Shown: positions 7,631-45,644, counted from the stretch's first letter. The stretch: DNA of 64,000 nt from Candidatus Bathyarchaeota archaeon (GCA_963832745.1 CAWHVC010000002.1:224001-288000), one strand, 5' to 3'. The notes: a model not told the origin generated them from the letters alone. A program made the numbers and translations.

Positions 7631-8025
7631 TGGTTACGCACCCTCTGCTGGCGCCGGCAACGCCCAAAACTTGCGCCGTCATTTTTGGCTTTAGCGTTTA
7701 CCGTGAAGCTTTTCAGCAACACCTGAGCTTCCTCGGAGCCAACATGATTTTTCTGGATTATGCTGGCGCTGGTTGTCCATGGCAAAGGCACGGCAGTGTA
7801 GTCGATGTCGTATAAGCCGTCGCTGTAACGGAAACAGTTCTGGGCAAGAATGAGATGTTTGCGTTTTTGTCCAAGTTGCCCAATGAAGATGCCCCAGCTT
7901 TTAACGGGAACGTCTATGCCGTTGACGCCGTTGGATAAGCTTTTGCCGATGCTGGCGTCGCACCATTCAACGCAGATTAAATCGCCGGTTGTTAAGGTGT
8001 TTATTTGGTTTATGATTTCTTTCAT
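7627..8025 (-). CDS. Hypothetical protein (mobile-element type)
   Basis: 132 aa, GDLICVEWCDAS...VKSWGIFIG; first gene of a tightly coupled cassette. Confidence 0.65.
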   Translation of the reverse strand: MKEIINQINTLTTGDLICVEWCDASIGKSLSNGVNGIDVPVKSWGIFIGQLGQKRKHLILAQNCFRYSDGLYDIDYTAVPLPWTTSASIIQKNHVGSEEAQVLLKSFTVNAKAKNDGASFGRCRRQQRVRNH

Positions 8026-8345
8026 TTTTTATCTACCGTTCTGTGGATTTGGCGTTTGTTAATTAAAACTTAAGGAACAAGATTGTGATATTTATGCAAT
8101 TTTCAGCTTAAAAATGCATTATTTGCAAATTATTTTATAAAAAGTCAGATTTTTAAAACCATAAAAAATGTTGCACAAAAAGATGAAATTATGTAGCCCT
8201 CACTTAACATTGTATTACTGAGCTATTTTTAGGCATTAAATTCAACCTAAACAGGATGGTTGAATTGTGCGAAACTGTTTTTCACAGGCACACCTATAAA
8301 AGAGGGCAAAGCAACATGCTAAATGCAACAACTTGGGAAATTAGA

Positions 8346-8675
8346 ATGACTGAACAATCAAACGAGAAAAACCAACAAGTCCCAGAAAAACTAGAAATTG
8401 ATGACCCAGAAAATTTTCAGTTCCACGCAGCCTACTCTGTATATGCTGAAGCCTTTGACAAAACCTCAGACGGCGAAACAAAAGGCGAATTAAATCAGTT
8501 GATTTTGGACCTTAAAGAAAACAAAATGAACTACGAAACCTTCTACCGCGACGTAGCGCCTTTCAGAAAAATTGATGTACCCCGTCAAGAACGCTTCACC
8601 ATGCAGACTCAGCGTAAACGCGATTGGCGTAAGAAGACTCAGCGTCAAGACAGAATTAAGCGTCACAAGAAGTAA
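8346..8675 (+). CDS. Hypothetical protein with basic C-terminus
   Basis: Coding-like composition from MTEQSNEK; Arg/Lys-rich tail. Confidence 0.7.
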   Translation: MTEQSNEKNQQVPEKLEIDDPENFQFHAAYSVYAEAFDKTSDGETKGELNQLILDLKENKMNYETFYRDVAPFRKIDVPRQERFTMQTQRKRDWRKKTQRQDRIKRHKK

Positions 8676-32604: not shown

Positions 32605-33291
32605 TTGACAGTAATAGTTGACGACGCCGGCAGCGGAGACTTGCTTTTTGGCGTTGTAGTCGGCGCTTACCGTGAAGAAACAGGCGATTTCAAATACGAC
32701 CTCATCGATGTACGGTTCTATCAGGAGAACTTTAAAGAAAAAGAGTACCTTCAAGAATCCTCACGGGTTGTTTCAAAACTCGTAACCGGCTTTAACCTTG
32801 CACCAGACGAAGAAATCCACATTTGCCAAGGATGCATTTTCGACGTAGCCGCAGAAGAACTCCGTAAAATTTACGGTGAAGACCGAGTAAAACGTATCCG
32901 GGTCGAAGGCGAAGCTCAACGCTTAATCGAAATAGCCTATTTGGATGAAATCCGTAATTTGGGTTATGAACCATTGGCTGAACGTGAAGAGAAACGGGGT
33001 AAAAGCTTCTTTCATATGATGCGTTGGCTAAAAGATAACCCCGAAATGCTCCGGTACGCGAAAACTGGCTGGCCTAAACTGAAAAATTATCAGTTATTCC
33101 GGAAATTCCACATTCCAACTGAACCTGTTCAGGTGTATAAGGCGGTTTGCGCTGAATGCGGTGTTGAATGTGAAGTGCCTTTTCAACCGAAAACCGATAA
33201 ACCGGTCTACTGCAAAAAATGTTGGTCCCACCACAAACCCCGTAAAAACAACCGCTACAAAAAGAGTAAAACGGTAAAAAATAAAAATTAG
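32605..33291 (+). CDS. RNase H-like fold protein with a C-terminal CxxC-x17-CxxC zinc ribbon
   Basis: VIVDDAGSGDLLFGVVVG resembles the RNase HII first motif; CAECGVECEVPFQPKTDKPVYCKKC. Confidence 0.7.
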   Translation: MTVIVDDAGSGDLLFGVVVGAYREETGDFKYDLIDVRFYQENFKEKEYLQESSRVVSKLVTGFNLAPDEEIHICQGCIFDVAAEELRKIYGEDRVKRIRVEGEAQRLIEIAYLDEIRNLGYEPLAEREEKRGKSFFHMMRWLKDNPEMLRYAKTGWPKLKNYQLFRKFHIPTEPVQVYKAVCAECGVECEVPFQPKTDKPVYCKKCWSHHKPRKNNRYKKSKTVKNKN

Positions 33292-34813: not shown

Positions 34814-34996
34814 TTGCCACCAAACTCTGAGAGAAGTCCAAACATACAAAGTGTTTGTGCTGACTGTGGTAGCGAATGCGAAATACCTTTCCAACCAAAA
34901 ACTGACAAACCAGTATACTGCCAAAAATGCTGGACCAATCACAAACCACAAAAAAACAGCCGCCACAAAAAAAGAAAAACGATAAAAAAAATTTAG
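34814..34996 (+). pseudogene. Second copy of the CxxC-x17-CxxC zinc ribbon
   Basis: VCADCGSECEIPFQPKTDKPVYCQKCWTNHKP, close to the C-terminus of 32605..33291; the preceding EVQTYK lies in another frame. Confidence 0.6.
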
Positions 34997-35319: not shown

Positions 35320-36004
35320 TGATGGCTAAAATTCGAAAGTTTGGCTTGGTTTTAGTGGGGATTTTACTTGCCAGTGGTTTATTGCTGTCATTTAATGTTC
35401 ATGCCGAGCCTTCAGTTGACCCGCCGCCTTTCCCAACTTTTACCGTTAGTCTGGTGGACTTCTCCTATGATGTACCAGTCTGTAACAAACCCTTATAACG
35501 GCAATATTACGACTCCAGACTCATAATGTTACAGAATATCAGTTAGAGCTCAAAATTAAAAATGTTCATGTTCCCTACAAGGAAGTATACTATAACATAC
35601 AAACCAAAGGTTTCTATGAGGATATATGGACAAGCCACTCACGAAATAGGGCATCTGATTCAGAGTACACTATGGTTCACCTTTCTGCAGAGTATAGTGT
35701 TGGTGATAAAATAGATATTCAAGTGCAGACGGAAATTGTGTACCAATATGAACAAGCTCCAATCTTGCCTAATCATGATTCGACCTTTTTAACTGGCTAC
35801 CAAAAAGGCAGTTGGAGCCCAACTCAAACTTTCACAATGCCAGACACATCCACGCCATCATCGACTCCAACATTTAGCGCCCCAGAATTTACCGCACTTA
35901 TAACAAATCCATTGGCAATCAGCATTATAGTCTTAACAATAGGCTTTATATTTGTAGCATTTGTGTTAAAGAAAAAAACAACCTCTAATTTCCACAAAAG
36001 CTAA
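35320..36004 (+). pseudogene. Secreted TM-anchored protein broken by frameshifts
   Basis: Signal peptide and PTFTVSLVDFSYDVP, then out-of-frame TNPYNG / LELKIKN / YYNIQTKG segments joining the 35672 ORF with its C-terminal TM. Confidence 0.7.
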
Positions 36005-36415: not shown

Positions 36416-38011
36416 ATGACATGTTACAGAAGATCACACATTATACAGCAGCGAGCAGGCGCTGGTACAGGTTACCAAATCAAAATTATTGTTCACAGTG
36501 GAAACGGAACCACTCAGAACGGAACCAACGAGCTATGGTGTAATAACCATTGTAAAAACGATTTTAGTGATATTAGATTCACTGCAAGCGATGGCTATAC
36601 ACCGTTACCTTTTTGGTGTGAAAGTCTAACCCAAGCAGACCAAGCTGTTTTTTGGGTTAAAATTCTTGATGATCTCAGTAGCGCGAACAGCACAATTTGG
36701 GTTTATTACACTCTCAATTATGATGCTACATATACCCCTTATCCATCAGCAAACAATGGTAAAGAAACTTTTCTATTTTTTGACGATTTCGCAGGATACC
36801 TAGATCCTTTGAAATGGAACACTTGGAAGGAAGGCGGTACGGGGGGCGGTACCGAGGTTAATCAAAGTGAATTGCGTGTAACCGGTGTCTCAAATTGGCA
36901 AAAAGTCGGTTCTAAAGTCATGTGGGGTTACCCAGTAGCTTTCCGTTATAAAGGTCGATTTAGTGAAGCAGGTTATTGCCAGATAGGTGCAGATGATGGT
37001 ACAGCAAGCAGTACTGGTGATGGATATAATGGGGTGGATCAAGCAGCCTTTAGTTATGGGAATAGCACGAAATCATATCGGTTTTCTAGACAAGGTGGCT
37101 ATACTACGATTTCAAGAACGTCTAATTTAAGCTCAAACACAACACTGGAAATTTGCAGACTCAAGAAATAGATACCGCAGACCCCTAAAAAAATCTACTT
37201 CTATGAAAATAATGTCCTTAAGGCATCGAATCAGAGTAGTGGTGTTCCGCTTAATGATCAAGGTCTCTATTTTGCGGCATATGGGTCAGATGTGTATCTT
37301 GATTGGTGTTTAGTTCGCAAGTTTGTTGACCCTGAGCCTGCTCATGGAGACTGGACAGGCGAAGATGTTGGGACAGATCAACCGGTTACAGGTAATTTGT
37401 TAGTGGCAGGAACAGCAGTAATAAATGGTCCCATCACAACAGGTCACGCAACACTTACTGGTTGTATGCAAAGTAATGAACATTGGGATAGCTTAGGATG
37501 GAACGATTTTTTGGACGCTATGAAATATCACAGGTTTTCTAATACAGTAGGCAAAATTCGTTTCCATGATTTAGCTGGTAGTGGTGATGTAGATCTTCAT
37601 GGTGCCTCGTTGGGTGATCCTATATTGGTTTGTACTCAACATTTCGCTGTAGAAAAAGACTTGTTAGCCACTGGAATGTTAAACAGTATTGAAGGAGAAT
37701 TATGCCTTAATGCAGGCAAATACGCTCCAAATTGGGCATGGGAAATCGTCAGCACTCATACACCTCTTACAACGGGTGAAACTACTACAACAAAGAACCC
37801 TTTCATTTGGCTAGCACAAGGTGGAATCTTTGGAAATTATAACACTTTGGAAATAAGAGTAACTGGAGACGCTAATGGAAACTGGAACTGGGGAAATTTT
37901 GCATGTGGAGACATAACAAGTTACGGAAACCTGCAAGTAAACTCGATAGTATTACCTACAAATCGTGCATCGCCTGCTGATGGTGAAATCTGGTTATACT
38001 CTGGAGCGTAA
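36416..38011 (+). pseudogene. DUF2341-type adhesin/virion fibre-like protein A, single in-frame TAG at 37169-37171
   Basis: GAGGTG RBS; YRRSH..GAGTGYQIKI..DFSDIRFT..FWVKI..NGKETFLFFDDF. The frame stays open for 40 codons past the TAG into the 37292 ORF (LDWCLVRKFVDPEPAHGDW...SPADGEIW). Confidence 0.75.
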
Positions 38012-38086
38012 CAAAATGTCAAATGACTTACTTAATGGAGAGTTTTTTTCTTCTCTCTTTTTTTATCAAAACAACTGTGAAATGAG

Positions 38087-39945
38087 GTGTTACTTGGGAG
38101 TTGGTTGACTGGTTGGACTAATAGAAAGTCTCATTTGATTACTGGTGCTACTGGTGCAGGTAACGATTACCAAGTAAAAATTATCGTTAATTATGGTTCT
38201 GGTAGCGATAGTGGTAACAGTGTTTATTGTAGCAGCAATTGTGGTCAGGATTTTGGTGATATACGTTTTACTGGTTCAGATGGAACAACATCACTTCCGT
38301 ATTGGATGGAGAAAAAAACTGATGGAACCAGCGCAGTCTTTTGGGTTAAAGTATTAGCCGATTTAAGTTCTAACCTAAACTATCTATGTCAACTACAATA
38401 AACCCAGCGAAACAACCACAAGTAACGGTACTGACACTTTTGACGTTTTTCGCAATTTAGTCGACAACTTCTATGCTGCTTTGGGAACAGTTAACCTTAC
38501 CATTTACAATAATGGCCAAGATCCTGGAGACTACTTTATCGCTTCACAAACTGTAAATTCAGTGAACATTAGCCCCTGTATCTACTTCAGAGTTTATGGT
38601 GGCAAAAAATATGCCGTATCTTTGTCTAACCTGTACTTTGAGGGTTTACTTGGTGGTGGAAACTATGGTATCTGCGGAATAGACCTACGCAACCGAACCT
38701 GAGCTGCTCCAACAGGCTGGAAAACATCAATGGCCTACACTGCAAATACAACGCTAAACAAAAAACACGTTGTTGTACTCGATTACTTAAAGGCAGGCAC
38801 TGGCAGTGGATCTATCGTGTTCTATTCAAGCTGGTCTAATCCTGATGATATACCTGAAGGTACATCTGCTTTAAGCCAAAGCCTTTCTTCCACGTCAAGG
38901 GCTGTCACCGAATACTTATACAATGGAAGCGTTTCGCACATTAGAATATCTGGTGAACCAAATTCCCAAGTTACCGCTTACTCTGCAGTATACGCGGTAG
39001 GTAAATATGTTAACCCTGAACCATCACATTCAACCTGGGGCAATGAAGAGTCTTCAGGTGGCGGAACAATACCTGATCAATCCAGTTTCCTACGTTTCAA
39101 GCGGGCTGACGGAGTTTACGCGCTTTGTGTTGTACCTAACGGTCAAGGTGCGGCCAGCATGGGTGGAATACCCAAAGTACGAAAAGACGGTGTCACATAT
39201 GACATCTATCTTGTTGAAACAAACGACGCTTTTGCAAGCCCTGTTAGAGTTAAAACCAGTGCTGGAACAAAAGCCGTACGATACTACACGAGCTCACAGT
39301 GATTCAGTGCACTCGGACGTAGCTCACAGCGATAACAGTTCTCACAGTGATGTCCCATTTTCAAATGTTGTGCATTCTGACTCTTCAACTCACAGCGATG
39401 TTGCTCATTCCGATGTTTCCGCTTTTTCCAACTGGGTAGAGCACTACGATCACAGTGACAGCCCACATAGCGATATTACTCATTCAGATGCCAGTAGCGC
39501 CCATAGCGATACGGCATTTAGTAACGTTGCTCACTCTGATACTCAACCCCAGTACTATTACGATGCCGCCCATTACTGGGATGGTTATTACCATTTGGAC
39601 GCGACTGGCGGTACCCCGATTGAACACTACGATTACAGCGACACTCCACATTCTGACGTTGTACATAGTGATGCTTCATCTCACAGTGATACGGCATTTA
39701 GTAACGTTGCTCATTCCGACACTCAACCTCAAGGATACTATGACCAATACAGTTGGTGGGACCAATATGACCACACAAATCATCAAAATGTTCCCTTTAG
39801 TAACACAGCACATTCAGATAGCACTCCTCACAGTGATGTTACTCATTCAGACGTACCCCACAGCGACACCGCGACAACACATAGCGATACCCCACATTCA
39901 GACTCTGTACATTCAGATACAGCAGAAGGCATAATCGCCTTCTGA
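38087..39945 (+). pseudogene. DUF2341-type protein B with a C-terminal His-Ser-Asp repeat tail (frameshift ~38378, in-frame TGA 38700-38702, frameshift ~39291)
   Basis: WLTGWTNRKSH..GAGNDYQVKI..DFGDIRFT..FWVKV; shift into TIYVNYNKPSETTTSNGTDTF; KYVNPEPSHSTWGNEE; ASPVRVKTSAGTKAVRYYT; shift into AHSDSVHSD... Confidence 0.7.
39292..39945 (+). repeat. Aromatic-X-Asp/Asn tripeptide repeat region (23 HSD, 5 FSN, ~10 variants)
   Basis: Counted from the translation; varied synonymous codons; exact 26-bp duplicate GATACGGCATTTAGTAACGTTGCTCA at 39508 and 39688. Confidence 0.9.
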
Positions 39946-39963
39946 CCTTTCGGGGTGAATATT

Positions 39964-41246
39964 ATGGCTATAATTGTAGTTCCAAATTTAAGTTGCAATA
40001 TCGGCTGCAAATACTGTTTTGCCCACGGCTACAGTTGGGTTGAAAACTCAAAAAAGAGTTACAACCTTAACGCTATGCTGGAATCAATGGAAAAGATGCA
40101 CAAACAAACCGGCGGTGACCTATTTTGTATGCATGGCGGCGAATGCACGTTGATAGATCGAAGTGACTTTGAAACCATCCTTAAAAAAATGTATCAGTTA
40201 CAGGGCAAATCATCTATTCAAACTAACGCTTACGAAATTGACAATGACTTAATTCGGCTATTCAAAAAATACAAAACTTCTGTTGGGGTAAGCATTGACG
40301 GAGACGGCGAGTTAAACTCCTTAAGAGGGTTCCCTTGTAACAAAGAAATGTCCAGCAAATATACCAATGTTGTTCTCAAGAACATGTTTGAAATGCAAAA
40401 ACAAGGCATCAATGTTGGCGTAATCACTTTGTTGCATAAAATTAACGCTGGCACTGACGAGGCACTTGACAAACTAGTTGACTTCATTTTGATGTTAAGA
40501 GCCAATAACATCAGAGGCGGCAGACTAAATTTAATGTGGACAAATTATCCAGAAGTAAAACAATACGAATTAACTCCACAAGAAGCTTCAAATGCATGGC
40601 TATACCTCTATGGCAACCTTAAACATTACCTGATTTAGAGTGGCAACCCTTCAGAGAATTCGCCGATAACCTTCTTGGTTATGGTCATTTTAGCTGTTCC
40701 TTTGGTAAATGTGATTACTTCTGCACAATGGGTGCTAAAGTCATACTGCCAGATGGTTCACTTGGAAATTGTGACCGCACTCATCAGGAAGGAGTTACAT
40801 ACACTAGAGCAACTGAGTCTCCTACATACGAACGATATGAAGTGTTAAAAGAAACAGATTGCAGTAATTGCAGATTCTGGAACATATGCTATGGCGGTTG
40901 CCCTTCTGAAGGTGACAACAGCGACTGGCGAAACAAAACACGATGGTGTAAACCAACATACGACCTCTACAGCGTTATTGAAGCCGATATACGCGCCCTT
41001 TTTCCTAACATAAACCTTGTAACCGATTATCATGGCAAAGAAGACTACTTTGATATGGTAAAAAAAGGCGTATACATCAAAGCATTCAGTAAAATGACCT
41101 GGGAAACAGCATGCAACCCTTCTTCATGGAAACACACTCAAGAAAAGCAGCCTTGGGGTACAAATCAATCCCGTCAACCTGTTTGCAATCCTCATGGCGA
41201 TTCTCCTCATGGTGACTTTACAAACAATGGTGGTGAAACCAATTGA
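39964..41246 (+). pseudogene. Radical SAM/SPASM maturase, split by a 1-nt frameshift at ~40630
   Basis: CNIGCKYC, HGGE, QTN, VSIDG. Adding one C at TACC|TGAT gives KHYPDLEWQPFREFADNLLGYGHFSCSFGKCDYFCT, which runs into the SPASM domain (GNCDRT, CSNCRFWNICYGGCP..WC). Confidence 0.85.
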
Positions 41247-42040
41247 CAGACCTTAACCCGTTTTTTAAAATATCTTGGAACAACGCCAATATCAGAAATA
41301 CATACGACAAAATAATTGCTTCAGCCAACGAATTAAGCTACAGAGCAGAATATGAAATGGTAAAGCTTGGGCTGCGACAAGCAAACGTGTACCACATGAC
41401 TCCGAATAGCTTTGACAAACAAATCGAAACCATAACAAACGATGGATTGGTTTTCTTGCCAATTCTTAGAAGCAAGGCATACAGCGGATTTAGCCACAAA
41501 CATTTTCCAGTTGACAAGTTAGACAGCGATACATTCGTATTTGGAGTAGTTGCCCAAAGCATTGAGATAGCCCAAAAATTCAAAGCTGCCTCCCTTAAGG
41601 GTGACCATATTACTCAAGGTGAACTGCTTGGCTACCCCAAATGCTGTTGTGAAGCATTCAGCAAAAACTGGTCTAGCAATAAACTTGATCCATGTTATGA
41701 ATCGGCAGTCAACACACCTGAAGCTACTTTGGATTACACTAAAGAAAAAGTACACGTTAATGGCGATGCATGCCTTAATACTATGCTTAGGTACTTTGGG
41801 GTGAGAATAGTTCCTTTCTTCCCGTGTAGTTACCAATGCAGCGAAGCTTTGGATGTCAGCAAGAACTGGTTTGAAGTAATGAAATCCTTAAACAAAGATG
41901 TTACTTTAAAAGTCAAGGAACTGCTTGAACAACCACTAACATGGGTATTTAACAAAGGCATAATCTACATAACAACTCCCATTATGCGAGCTGTTGTGAA
42001 CGGATATGAATGTGAAAGGAAGAGTGTACTATGGCAATGA
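41243..42040 (+). CDS. Cys-rich hypothetical protein, DUF483-like
   Basis: GELLGYPKCCCEAF and PFFPCSYQC motifs; TTGA overlap with the rSAM stop codon. Confidence 0.65.
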   Translation: MTDLNPFFKISWNNANIRNTYDKIIASANELSYRAEYEMVKLGLRQANVYHMTPNSFDKQIETITNDGLVFLPILRSKAYSGFSHKHFPVDKLDSDTFVFGVVAQSIEIAQKFKAASLKGDHITQGELLGYPKCCCEAFSKNWSSNKLDPCYESAVNTPEATLDYTKEKVHVNGDACLNTMLRYFGVRIVPFFPCSYQCSEALDVSKNWFEVMKSLNKDVTLKVKELLEQPLTWVFNKGIIYITTPIMRAVVNGYECERKSVLWQ

Positions 42041-42744
42041 CTGAAGAAAAGCAAAAGTATGCAATTGATTTCGTCAAAAAGACTCTTCCAGCTGATGCTG
42101 AAATACTCTTCTTAAGCTTGACTGGCAGTAGAGCATTTGGATGGGCCGATGGCGCTCAAGACTATGATGTTCATGGTGTCTTTCTATGTGATAACTATTG
42201 GGATTGGGTTCATTATGGAAAAAATATGTTTGATATTAATCTCTATGAGCTTCACCATATACAATCCGATATAGTTTGTTAGCATTTTGAGGAATTCATG
42301 AACTTTTCTAATCCATTCTATGTAAACCCCAAATTTGATTATGACGGATTGATGTCTTTTTGCACAAATGATAGTGTCAGACAAAAAGATGCTGATATAG
42401 AATCGCAGATAAACCGGTTTAAGTACGACGGATCACCAAGGACTGCTTTGCATGCCTACAGAATACTTATGGTGCCTTTGTATTTCATTGAAAATCGAAA
42501 GTTTAAGCTGAACATTTTTGAAATCAACGGACAGGACGCATTTGGTTTTTCTGAATTGAATAACTTAAAAGCTGCATATAATCTTGGGCATTCTAGTTAT
42601 AATAGAAAAAAAGTGCTTTCTGATTTAGAGTATTTGCACAATCTCTGCAAAGAAAAAATTGCTAAGTTACCTGCTGAAAAACCGGATATGGAGAAGGCTA
42701 AGATTTGGCTTAAAAATGTTAAGGGGGGTTTATTGCAAAAATGA
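42037..42744 (+). pseudogene. Pol-beta superfamily nucleotidyltransferase (RlaP/YcgL-like), in-frame TAG at 42280-42282
   Basis: LTGSRAFGWADGAQDYDVHGVF, DINLYEL; TAG CAT TTT GAG GAA TTC ATG joins the 42298 ORF in frame. Confidence 0.75.
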
Positions 42745-42971
42745 GTAACGAACTAAACCCTTATCAGGATATGTCACCAATGAACGGTAAATTAAATGTT
42801 GAAATGCAACGGCAAATCGCTACTTTGAACGCTCGGATTAACAATGCTACGTTAGCTTATGATGATTTGCTTAAAGAGATTAATTGCGTCTTTAAGATGA
42901 TGCTGAATACAATCGAAGTCCTGCAAAGGGAAGCTACTGAAATTAAGGCCAAGGCTCAGGATAAAGCCTGA
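42741..42971 (+). CDS. Small coiled-coil protein
   Basis: ATGA overlap, heptad-like helix; last gene of the operon. Confidence 0.6.
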   Translation: MSNELNPYQDMSPMNGKLNVEMQRQIATLNARINNATLAYDDLLKEINCVFKMMLNTIEVLQREATEIKAKAQDKA

Positions 42972-43555: not shown

Positions 43556-45062
43556 TTAAAATAACTTATGCATTGTTTTCGCTGTTTTTGTTTTTTTTCG
43601 TCGAAAGACCATAATTATTAATATGATAATTATGCTTGCAGCAACTACCGCGGCTATCCAAAGGGGCGGTTGATATGACAATTCTTTTGCTTCGTTTTGG
43701 ATTAAGCCCTGATTTGTTACGGTTATGGTGCCGCCGGATGTTTGGTCAAAAACAGTTGTTTCGCCCCCCAAGTTCATGAGGGTTTGCGCATCGACGTTTT
43801 CTATGAAAGAAGTTGTAAATGAAATGTTTGCCATATTGTTAAACACGATTTTCGCTGCTTCGCTACTTGTTTTTATCATCCATTCGTCAGGCGTAGATTG
43901 ATTTGCTGTTTAGTATGTTCATGTTTGCGTTACTTGTGAATTGAGTATTGGTGATGTCTAAATTACCGTTGTTTGCCATGTTGTGTATGTTGCTGACGTT
44001 GCAGTTTGTGAATGAGAGGTTGCCGGCGGTGTTGAAGCTGTTTATGTCTAACAGTTTGGTGCTGATGAATGTAGCTGTGCCTGCATTATTGTAGTTGTTC
44101 AGGTTTGTGATTGTACAGTTAGTCATTGTCTCGGCACCGTTAGTGTTGTAATTTCCGATGCCGCTGAAATTGCAATCATCCATTGTGTTTTCTATTCCGT
44201 AATCGCTGTAGATTATGTTGGCTGATGTACTTTCTATTATGCTGTTTTTCCAAGTTGCTTGCCCTGTTAAGATGCTGATGCTTGCGGTTTTTCCGTGTGA
44301 TGCTCCTGAGGCCGAAAAACCGCCTGAATCCACCGTTAATGTGCCGTATTGGCTGTTTAAGTTTATTGTTCCGCCATAATTGGCGTCCATTATGCAATGG
44401 GTAAGTTGGAGGTTGCCTTTGTTTGCAATGTTTTGTATTCCCCTGGCTCCGTTCGCGGTGAAGCCGGTGTTTGTTAGGGTTGCATCTTTGTTGTTTGTAA
44501 AGAATGTGCCGTCAAATTGGTCTTTAAGCTGCCAATTGTCCGCGTTTAGGGTGCCGTCATTGGTGATGTAGGCGACTCCCCCGTAAACGTTGATTCCCGC
44601 ATTTTTTACGATGAGGGTCTCGGTGTTGATTATGTGTAGTGTTGAGTTGCCTGATAGGTTGATGTTTTCGTCTTGAATAGTTAAGGTTCCTTTGTTTAGT
44701 ATGGTTAAGTTGGCTTGGGTGCATTGGATTTCTGCTTTTATGGTTAATTCGCCGTTGTTTATGATTTCTAACAGGGTTTTTTGGTTGTTTGTTCCTTGGA
44801 CGTTAATGTTGTGTTCAAGATTGCTTTTTTCGTTTGCCTCAATGGTTACTGTTGTGTTAGAAGTGATTGAATCGTTCATGTCTGATAAAATTTCGTTAGC
44901 TTGAGTAGTTTCAACAATAGAAATAGTTAAAATTATTATGATTAATGCACAAATTACCCTGTTTTTGTTCAATTTGAAATGCCTTCTCCCTTGAGGTTTT
45001 ATTATGTTTTGAGTGTTTATTTGTTTTTTGGGCTGGTTAATCACCGGTTGCTTGGGAAACAT
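43556..45062 (-). pseudogene. Asn/Thr-rich beta-helix-like surface protein split by a 1-nt insertion at ~43889
   Basis: N-terminal TM and N/T/G repeats; removing one base gives SIYADEWMIKTS, matching the internal LNADNWQLK and joining the C-terminal TM+RRKK part. Confidence 0.7.
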
Positions 45063-45086: not shown

Positions 45087-45644
45087 TTGTTAGTATTCTC
45101 TGGTGAATTACAATTGGATAAAGCTGATTATTTAATTTGGAGCCGCAAATACGACAAAGCCTACGGTTTTCTAGCACAGCGCGAACGAGAGTTAGGTTCC
45201 AAGTTTCGAAAAAAGAAAATGATGACTAAAGCGGATTTGGCAGCGATTGTTGAATGGAAATTCAAAGATGAACCTGACAAGAAGATGCATGCTTTAGAGT
45301 TGGTAGAACGAAATAGTGAGGAAGCGGTGGAACGTATTTCGAGTCAAGTTTTCAACCTGCCTGCAGGCGATGACGTTTACCGTATGAATTGCTTAACAAC
45401 CCTTGAAGGTGTTAACCCAGTGCTTGCAAGCATAATTTTGGCCTTCTTTGACCCTAAAATTTATGGAATTTTTGATGCTCGTGTTTGGAAACCAGTGCTT
45501 GGTAATGCTCCTTCTGGTCTGTTAACTACCTCGAATTATCGGACCTTATTGTTAGCTCTTCGAAAGACGGCTGCTAAACATAATTTAGACGTTAGAGTAA
45601 TTGATAAGGCGCTTTACAAGAAAAGTTTGGATGCGTCCAGTTAA
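45087..45644 (+). CDS. Hypothetical protein with a helix-hairpin-helix glycosylase-like motif
   Basis: IVEWKF, LEGVNPVLASIIL, IFDARVW, RVIDKALY. Confidence 0.65.
   Translation: MLVFSGELQLDKADYLIWSRKYDKAYGFLAQRERELGSKFRKKKMMTKADLAAIVEWKFKDEPDKKMHALELVERNSEEAVERISSQVFNLPAGDDVYRMNCLTTLEGVNPVLASIILAFFDPKIYGIFDARVWKPVLGNAPSGLLTTSNYRTLLLALRKTAAKHNLDVRVIDKALYKKSLDASS

What the first reader, a model, noticed from the sequence alone, without database searches (positions are those of the whole stretch)
36416..42971. Candidate new system: radical SAM/SPASM maturase operon targeting a His-Ser-Asp poly-repeat tail on an adhesin/virion-like protein
Seen: a co-directional operon of DUF2341-type protein A, DUF2341-type protein B ending in ~38 aromatic-X-D/N triplets, an rSAM/SPASM gene starting 18 nt after that tail, a Cys-rich DUF483-like gene, an RlaP-like nucleotidyltransferase and a coiled-coil gene; the last four overlap by TTGA/ATGA. 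Known: SPASM enzymes such as XyeB, GrrM and FxsB cross-link aromatic residue 1 to the C-beta of residue 3 in three-residue motifs, and the His-Xaa-Ser (Hxs) system pairs His repeats with rSAMs. Inference: the substrate here is not a short leader-core RiPP but the C-terminal domain of a large archaeal surface or virion protein, which would become a rigid poly-cyclophane or metal-binding rod. No protease, exporter or RRE gene is visible. I do not know a description of this arrangement, but cannot confirm novelty without a search.
Basis: partly seen in the sequence, partly recalled or inferred. Interest (0 to 1): 0.92.

Follow-up and report, generated by a model that had tools for sequence, protein, structure and literature searches.

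The report
Broken phage-type His-x-Asp repeat maturase cluster
This archaeal gene cluster is a decayed copy of a three-gene module, common in phages, in which a radical SAM enzyme and an unknown-fold partner always sit beside proteins packed with His-x-Asp motifs and probably cross-link them.

Summary
Protein B ends in exactly 38 aromatic-x-Asp/Asn triplets. It is followed by an rSAM/SPASM gene, a DUF483-like gene, an RlaP-like nucleotidyltransferase and a small ORF.

This copy is broken by four frameshifts and three in-frame stops.

The proposed enzyme-substrate link holds up in comparisons:
- All 80 viral contigs found through the DUF483-like gene carry a homologous rSAM beside it, and 75 of 80 have an HxD/N-repeat ORF within 4 kb.
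- In an rSAM-first metagenome scan, 38 of 38 loci with room on both sides have the DUF483-like gene and 31 of 38 a separate repeat ORF. The other 7 carry 5-8 HxD/N motifs on the rSAM's own tail.
- Cultured Thermus phage Cumys has the module behind its baseplate and tail-fibre genes.

The rSAM reaches no curated family cutoff. Its model is closest to the cyclophane synthase ChlB and to anSME. The DUF483-like fold matches nothing solved.

Best reading: repeated aromatic-to-Cβ cross-linking of repeat proteins encoded in phage tail-fibre gene modules. The chemistry is inferred, not shown. A 2024 preprint noticed the module but guessed DNA modification.

The parts
36416..38011 (+). Protein A: DUF2341/LamG-like surface-type protein, one frame, interrupted by an in-frame TAG at 37169-37171
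   Evidence: Pfam DUF2341 62.5 bits. A single-frame translation continues through the stop. The codon was read.
38087..38401 (+). Protein B, piece 1: DUF2341 N-terminal part, 53% identical to protein A. The frame is lost near 38370-38380.
   Evidence: Sequence read.
38379..39302 (+). Protein B, pieces 2-3 in one frame. There is an in-frame TGA at 38700-38702. The frame holds the end of the LamG-like part, then a roughly 70-aa pre-tail domain (about 39078-39290) that is 59% identical to the N-terminus of the intact stand-alone repeat protein of L092.
39295..39945 (+). Protein B tail: 216 residues with 38 aromatic-x-Asp/Asn triplets (23 HSD). It is reached only after a further frameshift near 39280-39295. 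This is the proposed substrate region.
   Evidence: counts and shuffles.
39955..40638 (+). Radical SAM core (CxxxCxxC). Start is the GTG at 39955 or the ATG at 39964. The frame is lost within 40623-40636.
   Evidence: Pfam Radical_SAM 53.3 bits; NCBIfam; reading against the intact L092 homologue.
40623..41246 (+). SPASM half of the same rSAM in another frame. It includes the enzyme's own two HGD motifs at 41193-41216.
   Evidence: TIGR04085 27.6 bits against cutoff 27; 7-Cys pattern invariant in alignment A6; tail printed.
41243..42040 (+). DUF483-like partner protein, 265 aa, intact. Its start overlaps the rSAM stop (TTGA).
   Evidence: PF04467 30.4 bits. 89 homologues. AF2 model pLDDT 93.5. 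It is the only copy in the genome.
42031..42744 (+). RlaP-like nucleotidyltransferase, one frame, with an in-frame TAG at 42280-42282 that aligns with Gln in the intact L092 homologue. An optional accessory of the module.
   Evidence: Present in 10 of 73 metagenome loci.
42741..42971 (+). 76-aa ORF with an ATGA overlap. Not conserved in any related locus, so its membership in the module is doubtful.
   Evidence: No phmmer hit.

Best explanation
The window holds a decayed copy of a conserved module that is mainly phage-borne. The module has three parts:
1. A protein carrying many aromatic-x-Asp/Asn motifs, mostly His-x-Asp.
2. A radical SAM/SPASM enzyme.
3. A DUF483-like protein of unknown fold.

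Shown here: the three genes travel together, in a few proteins the two enzyme domains are fused, and the enzyme usually carries HxD motifs on its own tail.

Inferred mechanism:
- The rSAM abstracts a hydrogen from the beta-carbon of the Asp/Asn at position 3.
- It joins that carbon to the ring of the aromatic residue at position 1, as in a three-residue cyclophane.
- It repeats this at every motif, on a whole protein rather than a short peptide.
- The DUF483-like partner, often fused to a methyltransferase, helps with recognition or adds a second modification.

In phages the products are probably accessory proteins of the tail-fibre module.

In this archaeal genome the module is fused to a DUF2341 surface-type protein. 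It is now inactive because of four frameshifts and three in-frame stops.
For: Gene linkage:
- 80 of 80 viral loci found through the DUF483-like gene have a homologous rSAM next to it. 75 of 80 have an ORF with at least 9 motifs per 60 aa within 4 kb.
- Such ORFs are 94 of 2032 six-frame ORFs near the module against 1 of 1306 farther away.
- rSAM-first scan of metagenome contigs: 73 loci, 38 with room on both sides. Of these, 38 of 38 have the DUF483-like gene and 31 of 38 a separate repeat ORF.
- The 7 without a separate ORF have 5-8 HxD/N motifs in the rSAM's own last 70 residues (L145 read).
- Of 121 distinct full-length rSAMs, 104 have at least 1 and 83 at least 3 HxD/N motifs in the last 70 aa. 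The mean is 3.8 there against 0.13 per 70 aa in the catalytic part. The window's enzyme has two.

Motif grammar, over 159 repeat ORFs and 33,733 residues:
- 5052 of 5227 His have D/N at +2.
- Glu at +2 occurs 29 times against 138 expected.
- Position 2 is free (S, T, G, A, D, E, V...).
- F, Y and W replace His, and F goes with N (odds ratio 5).

Enzyme:
- CxxxCxxC and all seven SPASM cysteines are invariant.
- Best curated-model hits are cyclophane or peptide maturases (DynA, AmcB, YhhB) and anSME.
- The AF2 model's best solved matches are ChlB (E 9e-17, TM 0.74) and anSME (E 2e-16, TM 0.73).

Fusions:
- rSAM+DUF483: P0127, P0212.
- rSAM+DUF483-like+methyltransferase: P0232.
- PqqD/RRE+DUF483-like+methyltransferase: P0244 (the Pfam domains, the DUF483-like stretches from the A1-profile matches).

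Phage context:
- Thermus phage Cumys has, in order, baseplate genes, a tail collar fibre gene and one further small hypothetical gene, then a 344-aa protein with about 54 HxD/N motifs, the rSAM and the DUF483 gene.
- Among the 48 nearest upstream genes scanned, most named PHROG hits are tail fibre or tail proteins.

Precedent:
- His-C2 to C-beta cross-links on H-x-X motifs by rSAM triceptide synthases are established (PMC11499958, text read).

Decay of this copy:
- Lesions were read.
- The 19 ORFs of 300 aa or more elsewhere in the window total 9148 aa and are uninterrupted.
Against: - No chemistry was measured.
- The rSAM reaches no curated family cutoff: 27-110 bits against 300-650. It is as close to anSME as to ChlB.
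- The DUF483-like fold gives no functional clue.
- The repeat regions were defined by the motif itself, so the motif statistics are partly circular.
- IMG/VR and JGI metagenome contigs overlap, so the two locus sets are not independent.
- Virion incorporation of any repeat protein is not shown.
- Only some repeat proteins have recognisable tail-fibre domains. Of 51 scanned, a few match 'tail fiber', 'central tail fiber J' or 'host specificity' PHROGs, and the commonest hit is a PHROG of unknown function (8 of 51).
- No viral hallmark gene was found next to the window's cluster.
- The lesions could not be checked against reads.
Confidence: 0.55

Rival explanations
1. Same enzyme-substrate pair, different chemistry. 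The rSAM attacks the Asp/Asn beta-carbon, or the ring, but makes something other than a C-C cyclophane. Candidates are a C-N or C-O link, an oxidised or decarboxylated Asx such as aminomalonate, or a metal-binding site. The DUF483 and methyltransferase part then adds methyl groups.
For: - Asx, not Glu, is required at position 3, and His dominates position 1. That would also suit a built chelating site.
- Methyltransferase fusions to DUF483 are common.
- Canonical archaeal DUF483 genes sit beside a methyltransferase-like gene in 27 of 31 loci.
- Asp-to-aminomalonate chemistry exists in RiPPs (PMC12186529, search listing and abstract start only). An rSAM route to it is my recollection and was not checked.
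Against: - Phe, Tyr and Trp freely replace His. This fits a ring-carbon partner better than a metal ligand.
- The closest structural match is a three-residue cyclophane synthase.
- The short DUF483-like form in this window has no methyltransferase domain.
Confidence: 0.25
2. The rSAM and DUF483 pair does not act on the repeat protein at all. It modifies DNA, as the Thermus phage preprint proposed, or another molecule. The HxD repeats are only a metal-binding or structural stretch that happens to be encoded nearby.
For: - The preprint reports homologues beside deazapurine DNA-modification genes in cyanobacteria (passage read). I could not see its Figure 3B or its supplements.
- Methyltransferase and glycosyltransferase fusions exist.
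- One locus has a sulfatase-family gene beside the rSAM.
Against: - HxD motifs sit on the enzyme's own tail in 104 of 121 rSAMs, and are most numerous where no separate repeat gene is present.
- A PqqD (peptide-binding) fusion to the DUF483-like domain exists.
- The rSAM belongs structurally with peptide- or protein-modifying SPASM enzymes.
- The module sits in tail-fibre gene blocks, not replication blocks.
Confidence: 0.07
3. The cluster in this window is intact in the organism, and the seven lesions are assembly errors in a hard-to-assemble stretch.
For: - The assembly has only 5 contigs. My inference is that it was built from long reads.
- The same-genus relative G011 also shows a frameshifted rSAM, at a different place. 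That could reflect a shared type of error.
Against: - Three of the seven lesions are base substitutions to stop codons (TAG, TGA, TAG), which indel-prone reads do not produce.
- The rSAM frameshift is not at a homopolymer.
- 19 ORFs of 300-893 aa elsewhere in the window are uninterrupted.
- Intact homologues exist in other archaeal assemblies.
Confidence: 0.12

Closest known systems
Triceptide (three-residue cyclophane) synthases: rSAM/SPASM enzymes such as ChlB, YhhB, HaaB, HtkB, XyeB and GrrM/OscB
   Same: - rSAM/SPASM enzyme with no RRE domain found.
- Substrate motif is aromatic-x-X3, repeated.
- His is accepted at position 1 in HaaB, HtkB and YhhB (PMC11499958).
- ChlB is the best structural match to the model.
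- Weak HMM hits to AmcB, YhhB, XyeB, GrrM and FxsB.
   Different: - Below every curated cutoff.
- Position 3 is Asp/Asn.
- Substrates are whole proteins with tens to more than 100 motifs, not leader-core peptides released by a protease. PMC12912966 states that all characterised triceptides are cut before the first motif (passage).
- An obligate DUF483-like partner.
- The enzyme carries its own motifs.
- Mostly on phage contigs.
Anaerobic sulfatase-maturating enzyme (anSME)
   Same: Same rSAM/SPASM architecture. Sequence hit to 4k36 (E 3e-7). Fold match TM 0.73.
   Different: - 57-90 bits against the 349-bit cutoff.
- No sulfatase in the cluster.
- Position 2 of the motif, where Ser is common here, is variable across the family and includes Gly. 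Ser or Cys oxidation therefore cannot be the general reaction.
His-Xaa-Ser (Hxs) system, HxsB/HxsC
   Same: A His-containing tripeptide repeat paired with rSAM chemistry. Weak HMM hit to HxsB (27-44 bits).
   Different: - The cutoff of 370 bits is not reached.
- There is one rSAM, not a pair.
- The motif is H-x-D/N, not H-x-S.
- What is known of the Hxs system beyond the NCBIfam names is my recollection.
'rSAM module' of Thermus phages Cumys and phiMa (bioRxiv 10.1101/2024.08.14.607894)
   Same: The same three genes. The window's DUF483-like protein matches Cumys, phiMa and phiLo at 29-31% identity.
   Different: - The preprint proposes DNA modification.
- In its main text, searched, the word 'histidine' does not occur and none of the 'repeat' passages concerns this protein.
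- It reports prophages and cyanobacteria but no archaeal copies, in the passages I read.

Membership tests
Radical SAM superfamily (PF04055) | CxxxCxxC cluster motif and a Pfam score above the gathering cutoff | tested here: met
   53.3 bits against 29.5. C17, C21 and C24 are invariant in A6. The motif was read in the window ORF.
SPASM domain (TIGR04085) | Seven-Cys pattern C..G-x4-C .. C-x2-C-x5-C-x3-C .. C for two auxiliary clusters | tested here: met
   27.6 bits against cutoff 27 on window 40623-41246. C249, C254, C273, C301, C304, C310, C314 and C330 are invariant in A6. In the window the domain is in a different frame from the core.
Triceptide synthases (3-CyFE) | Scores above a curated family model (XyeB, GrrM/OscB, FxsB, YhhB, AmcB) | tested here: not met
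   Best scores are 27-96 bits against cutoffs of 310-450.
Triceptide synthases (3-CyFE) | An adjacent substrate with aromatic-x-X3 motifs | tested here: met
   38 motifs in the window. 75 of 80 viral loci, and 31 of 38 metagenome loci plus 7 with motifs on the enzyme's own tail.
Triceptide synthases (3-CyFE) | Formation of a ring-to-C-beta bond (-2 Da per motif) | not testable with these tools
   Needs co-expression with MS and NMR.
Triceptide synthases (3-CyFE) | A short leader-core precursor released by a protease | tested here: not met
   Repeat ORFs run from 45 aa (contig-edge fragments) to 1428 aa, and the intact Cumys repeat protein is 344 aa. No protease in the cluster.
Anaerobic sulfatase maturase (TIGR03942) | Curated score, and a sulfatase partner with the C/S-x-P-x-R motif | tested here: not met
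   57-90 bits against 349. No sulfatase in the window cluster or its flanks.
His-Xaa-Ser system (HxsB, TIGR03978) | Curated score, and a paired second rSAM (HxsC) | tested here: not met
   27-44 bits against 370. The cluster has a single rSAM.
DUF483 (PF04467) | Pfam gathering score | tested here: met
   30.4 bits against 25. It is a separate branch. 31 DUF483 loci from genomes titled Woesearchaeota, Nanoarchaeota/Nanoarchaeia, Methanosarcinales and one unassigned archaeon have no rSAM within the fetched flanks. 27 of those 31 have a neighbouring gene of one cluster whose one scanned member (L097) scores just under the Pfam methyltransferase cutoff (24.4 bits vs 27).
RlaP nucleotidyltransferase (PF10127) | Pfam gathering score | tested here: met
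   26.3 bits against 23 on the first piece. The gene is interrupted by a TAG.

The most novel reading that the evidence does not exclude
Many tailed phages, and a few archaea and bacteria that took the genes over, run a protein-scale RiPP-like pathway. A two-part maturase consists of an rSAM/SPASM enzyme with a built-in substrate-like HxD tail and a new-fold DUF483 partner. It would install tens to more than a hundred His/aromatic-to-Asx cross-links along proteins encoded in phage tail-fibre gene modules. The result would be a new kind of rigid, protease-proof or metal-organising fibre. That would be the first radical-SAM cross-linking of phage structural-module proteins, and the largest known cyclophane substrates.
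Probability: 0.4. Interest if true: 0.9.

Novelty: new variant of a known kind. Interest (0 to 1): 0.75.

Why it matters
If the inference holds, radical-SAM cyclophane chemistry is not confined to small secreted peptides. Phages would use it on whole structural-type proteins, at a density of one cross-link every 3-6 residues.

Consequences:
- It gives a function to a widespread gene pair of unknown role. A profile of the DUF483-like protein finds 2605 clusters at 50% identity, 553 of them at E <= 1e-30. At least 109 IMG/VR contigs carry it.
- It corrects a published guess of DNA modification.
- It offers enzymes that process very long repeat substrates.
- It is directly testable, because cultured Thermus thermophilus phages carry intact modules.

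For this genome alone the finding is modest. It is a rare, horizontally acquired and now dead copy. The DUF483-like protein was found in 0 of 400 other sampled genomes of the class with this query.

Tried and rejected
- Complex prediction of the intact L092 rSAM (alignment A6) with its DUF483-like partner (A7, residues 1-270): 'no answer', score 0.00 against a mark of 0.32, controls not run. It is listed here only and used neither way.
- The look-up of sequencing runs for 36416-42971: no run was listed and no RNA holder was listed. Read laying was therefore not used and the lesions stay unchecked.
- Fold searches of the DUF483-like model (pLDDT 93.5) gave nothing at E <= 0.001, either against the PDB or BFVD. 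The best were 2guk (target TM 0.64, an unknown-function protein) and a weak NleE match. I draw no function from these. The A1 profile against PDB sequences gave only a chance-level hit.
- The listing of cluster members gave no organism names.
- PHROG scans of the window's own proteins and neighbours gave nothing viral; the single hit was to an unknown-function PHROG, for 45087-45644. I therefore do not call the window region a provirus.
- Stop-codon recoding was considered, because TAG at 42280 aligns with Gln and there is a second in-frame TAG at 37169. I rejected it because an in-frame TGA and four frameshifts occur in the same cluster.
- A pentapeptide-repeat beta-helix fold for the tail was considered. 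I set it aside because motif spacing across the family varies: 3 (1065 cases), 4 (781), 5 (2926), 6-9.
- Ser-to-formylglycine oxidation at position 2 was rejected because position 2 is variable.
- A sequence-similarity network or tree with characterised cyclophane synthases was not built, because no reference sequences of those enzymes were available to me.
- Literature searches found no description of HxD-repeat proteins matured by rSAM enzymes. Only the Thermus phage preprint mentions the module. Its figures and supplements could not be seen and may show more loci.

Full report
WHAT IS IN THE WINDOW

Between 36416 and 42971 all ORFs run on the + strand.

- **Protein A (36416-38011).** It has a DUF2341 domain (62.5 bits). 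It is a single reading frame broken by an in-frame TAG at 37169-37171.
- **Protein B (38087-39945).** It starts with a DUF2341 domain that is 53% identical to A.
  - It changes frame near 38375.
  - It has an in-frame TGA at 38700-38702.
  - It changes frame again near 39290.
- **The tail of B.** Its last 216 residues carry exactly 38 [HFYW]-x-[DN] triplets: 23 HSD, 5 FSN and 10 others.
  - Shuffles give 9.6 +/- 2.4, with a maximum of 20 in 10,000.
  - 28 of 29 His are followed by x-D/N.
  - At DNA level this is not a tandem repeat. I infer that the pattern is held at protein level.
- **The rSAM.** It begins 9 nt (GTG) or 18 nt (ATG) after the tail's stop.
  - It has the CxxxCxxC motif (Radical_SAM 53.3 bits).
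  - It loses its frame within 40623-40636 and continues as a SPASM domain (TIGR04085 27.6 bits, cutoff 27).
  - It ends with two HGD motifs of its own.
- **Downstream genes.**
  - An intact DUF483-like gene (30.4 bits, cutoff 25).
  - An RlaP-like nucleotidyltransferase (26.3 bits, cutoff 23) with an in-frame TAG at 42280-42282. That TAG aligns with Gln in an intact homologue.
  - A 76-aa ORF without relatives.

IS THE COPY ALIVE?

Seven lesions fall in 6.6 kb: four frameshifts and three stop substitutions. The rest of the window has 19 uninterrupted ORFs of 300-893 aa.

Stop substitutions are not typical assembly errors, and the rSAM frameshift is not at a homopolymer. I read the cluster as pseudogenised.

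No public run was listed, so this could not be checked against reads.

- The genome (3.02 Mb, 5 contigs, 99% complete) has no second copy of the rSAM or the DUF483-like gene.
- Of 40 sampled relatives, one same-genus genome (G011) has the pair. Its rSAM is frameshifted at another position and it has only three HxD/N motifs upstream.
- In 400 further sampled genomes of the class the DUF483-like protein was not found with this query.
- Four assemblies titled Candidatus Bathyarchaeota carry the rSAM/DUF483-like pair: the rSAM reads as one open frame in three (L092, L094, L095) and is split into two frames in the fourth (L093).
- In L092 the order is: a 397-aa protein, a 327-aa repeat protein, the NTase, a 427-aa rSAM and the DUF483-like gene, all open.
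- The N-terminal 70 residues of that repeat protein are 59% identical to the stretch just before the window's tail.

The distribution is patchy, as expected for an acquired element.

THE MODULE ELSEWHERE

The DUF483-like protein has 89 homologues in the large protein set. A profile of it finds 2605 clusters at 50% identity, 553 of them at E <= 1e-30.

**Viral contigs.** A scan of IMG/VR found 109 contigs, of which 80 were fetched.
- In 80 of 80 a homologue of the window's rSAM lies beside the DUF483-like gene, mostly directly upstream.
- In 75 of 80 an ORF with at least 9 motifs per 60 residues lies within 4 kb.
- Of the other five loci, three are cut by a contig end beside the module. Three of the five rSAMs (L013, L035, L086) carry 4-6 HxD/N motifs on their own tails.
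- Such ORFs are 94 of 2032 six-frame ORFs of 100 aa or more near the module, against 1 of 1306 farther away.

**Starting from the rSAM.** A scan of metagenome contigs used the family-specific motif after the last SPASM cysteines and gave 73 loci.
- Of the 38 with room on both sides, 38 have the DUF483-like gene and 31 a separate repeat ORF.
- The seven without one have 5-8 HxD/N motifs on the rSAM's own C-terminus.
- Some of these contigs are the same as IMG/VR contigs, so the sets are not independent.

**The enzyme's own tail.** Across 121 distinct full-length rSAMs, 104 have at least one and 83 at least three HxD/N motifs in the last 70 residues. That is 3.8 on average, against 0.13 per 70 residues in the catalytic part.

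**Cultured phages.** Thermus phages Cumys, phiMa and phiLo carry the pair.
- In Cumys the order is: baseplate genes, tail collar fibre gene and a small hypothetical gene, then a 344-aa protein with three G-S-x-W repeats and about 54 HxD/N motifs, the rSAM and the DUF483 gene.
- phiLo has HxD motifs on the rSAM tail and two further large HxD proteins.

**Phage gene context.**
- Among the 48 nearest upstream genes scanned, most named PHROG hits are tail fibre, tail, collagen-like minor tail or virion structural proteins.
- Of 51 repeat proteins scanned, a few match tail-fibre or host-specificity PHROGs, Phage-tail_3 or Laminin_G_3. Most match nothing named.
- Many repeat proteins begin, right at the start codon, with a conserved triple G-S-x-W domain that looks like a leader.

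MOTIF GRAMMAR

The figures below cover 159 distinct repeat ORFs and 33,733 residues of repeat region.

- 5052 of 5227 His have Asp or Asn two residues on.
- Glu at that place is depleted (29 against 138 expected).
- The middle residue is free: S 1639, T 1062, G 757, A 482, D 418, E 396, V 329.
- Phe, Tyr and Trp replace His. Phe prefers Asn and His prefers Asp (odds ratio 5).
- Spacing between motifs is 5 (2926 cases), 3 (1065), 4 (781) or more.

The regions were defined by the motif, so the percentages are partly circular. The free middle position, the exclusion of Glu and the exchange among aromatic residues are not circular.

This grammar is that of the aromatic-x-X3 motifs of triceptides. 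In those, an rSAM joins a ring carbon to the beta-carbon of residue 3, and His-C2 links are documented for HAA, HNR and HTK motifs (PMC11499958, main text read).

The grammar argues against a plain metal-binding stretch. It also argues against anSME-type oxidation of the middle Ser.

THE ENZYMES

**The rSAM.**
- The family keeps CxxxCxxC and all seven SPASM cysteines. No RRE domain was found.
- Five intact members and the window's pieces hit DynA, AmcB, anSME, YhhB, TIGR04083, DarW, PapB, GrrM, XyeB, FxsB and HxsB. Scores are 27-110 bits, far below the cutoffs of 300-650.
- By sequence the only solved relatives are anSME (E 3e-7) and ChlB (E 1e-3).
- An AF2 model (pLDDT 76.8, disordered after residue 360) matches ChlB best (E 9e-17, TM 0.74). 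anSME is next (E 2e-16, TM 0.73), then SuiB, CteB and SkfB.
- It is therefore a separate family within the protein-modifying SPASM group, next to a known three-residue cyclophane synthase but not a member of any named family.

**The DUF483-like partner.**
- It folds with high confidence (pLDDT 93.5, pTM 0.89) but resembles nothing in the PDB or BFVD.
- Its invariant residues include a G-x-L-L-G-Y-P-x-C-C stretch and further Cys and His.

**Natural fusions tie the parts together.**
- rSAM+DUF483: P0127, P0212.
- rSAM+DUF483-like+methyltransferase: P0232.
- PqqD/RRE+DUF483-like+methyltransferase: P0244.
- Glycosyltransferase+DUF483-like: P0147, P0197.
- The DUF483-like stretches of P0232, P0244, P0147 and P0197 come from the A1-profile matches.
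- DUF483+methyltransferase in two of the long viral forms scanned (L046, L052).

Inteins interrupt the rSAM in L047 and the DUF483-like protein in P0118 and P0123.

31 DUF483 loci from genomes titled Woesearchaeota, Nanoarchaeota/Nanoarchaeia or Methanosarcinales, plus one unassigned archaeon, have no rSAM within the fetched flanks. 27 of the 31 have a neighbouring gene of one cluster; the one member scanned (L097) scores 24.4 bits on Methyltransf_31, just under its cutoff of 27.

MOST LIKELY MECHANISM

Shown: the genes co-occur, the domains fuse, and the enzyme carries the motif.

Inferred:
1. The rSAM cleaves SAM.
2. The 5'-deoxyadenosyl radical takes a hydrogen from the Asp/Asn beta-carbon.
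3. The carbon radical adds to the imidazole or benzene-type ring two residues upstream.
4. An auxiliary cluster takes the electron.
5. The enzyme moves to the next motif.

The enzyme's own HGD tail may be a built-in first substrate or a plug for the active site. The DUF483-like protein may hold the substrate (a PqqD fusion points to peptide handling) or add a further group (methyltransferase fusions). The NTase is optional.

The product would be a stiff, protease-resistant stretch whose free imidazole nitrogens and carboxylates might still bind metals. In phages it probably belongs to the tail-fibre apparatus. Virion incorporation is not shown.

RIVALS

- Another chemistry on the same motifs: 0.25.
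- A different substrate such as DNA, as guessed in the Thermus phage preprint: 0.07.
- Locally, assembly error rather than decay: 0.12.

KNOWN OR NEW?

Seven full-text searches found no account of rSAM-matured HxD-repeat proteins.

The preprint 10.1101/2024.08.14.607894 (passages read) describes the three-gene 'rSAM module' in Cumys and phiMa. It notes similar loci in prophages, and DUF483 fusions to methyltransferase or rSAM domains. It suggests an unknown DNA modification. 'Histidine' does not occur in its main text and none of its 'repeat' passages concerns this protein. Its figures and supplements were not visible to me.

I therefore rate this a new variant of a known kind. The chemistry is probably familiar. 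The substrate class, the partner protein and the biological setting are new.

VERDICT

It is unproven in its chemistry.
- The local copy is dead.
- Interest is high for the family and modest for this genome.

Noticed in passing
window 41193-41216; rSAM tails in loci L010-L208: The rSAM enzymes carry HxD/HGD motifs on their own disordered C-terminal tails (104 of 121 distinct enzymes). There are up to 8 where no separate repeat gene is present. The window's enzyme has two.
   Followed up: yes
L047:6488-9142; proteins P0118, P0123: Inteins (LAGLIDADG plus splicing domain) interrupt the rSAM in one viral locus, and the DUF483-like protein in two representatives.
   Followed up: partly
protein P0244: A fusion protein combines a PqqD/RRE peptide-binding domain (Pfam), a DUF483-like domain at residues 129-389 (A1 profile match) and a class I methyltransferase (Pfam).
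   Followed up: partly
L097-L131 (DUF483 loci titled Woesearchaeota, Nanoarchaeota, Methanosarcinales): Canonical DUF483 genes have no rSAM nearby. In 27 of 31 loci they sit beside a small gene of one cluster; the one member scanned (L097) scores 24.4 bits on Pfam Methyltransf_31, below its cutoff of 27. DUF483 plus a methyltransferase-like gene may be the older pairing.
   Followed up: partly
repeat proteins in L044-L090 (alignment A5): Many repeat proteins start with three tandem copies of a roughly 35-aa unit with invariant G-S-x-W, directly followed by the first HxD motif. It looks like a leader. It has no Pfam family.
   Followed up: partly
window 39295-39945 and all repeat ORFs: Position 1 and position 3 co-vary. 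His goes with Asp and Phe with Asn (odds ratio 5 over 159 ORFs). In the window all five Phe motifs are FSN.
   Followed up: partly
L145:3907-4608 and 7792-8601: In one viral-type locus a sulfatase-superfamily gene lies just upstream of the rSAM. By my reading it has a Thr, not Cys/Ser-x-P-x-R, at the nucleophile site. A GT2 glycosyltransferase lies downstream.
   Followed up: partly
window 32605-33291 and 34814-34996: A protein with a treble-clef zinc finger (PF23477) lies upstream. A 60-aa ORF 1.5 kb further on repeats its C-terminal zinc-finger part. The stretch 33.3-36.4 kb has only short ORFs and may hold more decayed genes.
   Followed up: no
window 43887-45062 (-), 35672-36004 (+): The flanking ORFs have no family hits. 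By my reading they look like archaeal surface proteins (Asn/Thr-rich repeats, C-terminal membrane anchor). The cluster seems to sit in a surface-protein island rather than a recognisable provirus.
   Followed up: partly
L123:6668-10537 (Myxococcota genome record): One open frame of 1290 aa holds two Radical_SAM stretches, a GFO_IDH_MocA oxidoreductase domain and a DUF483 domain. It is either a giant fusion or several genes without intervening stops.
   Followed up: no
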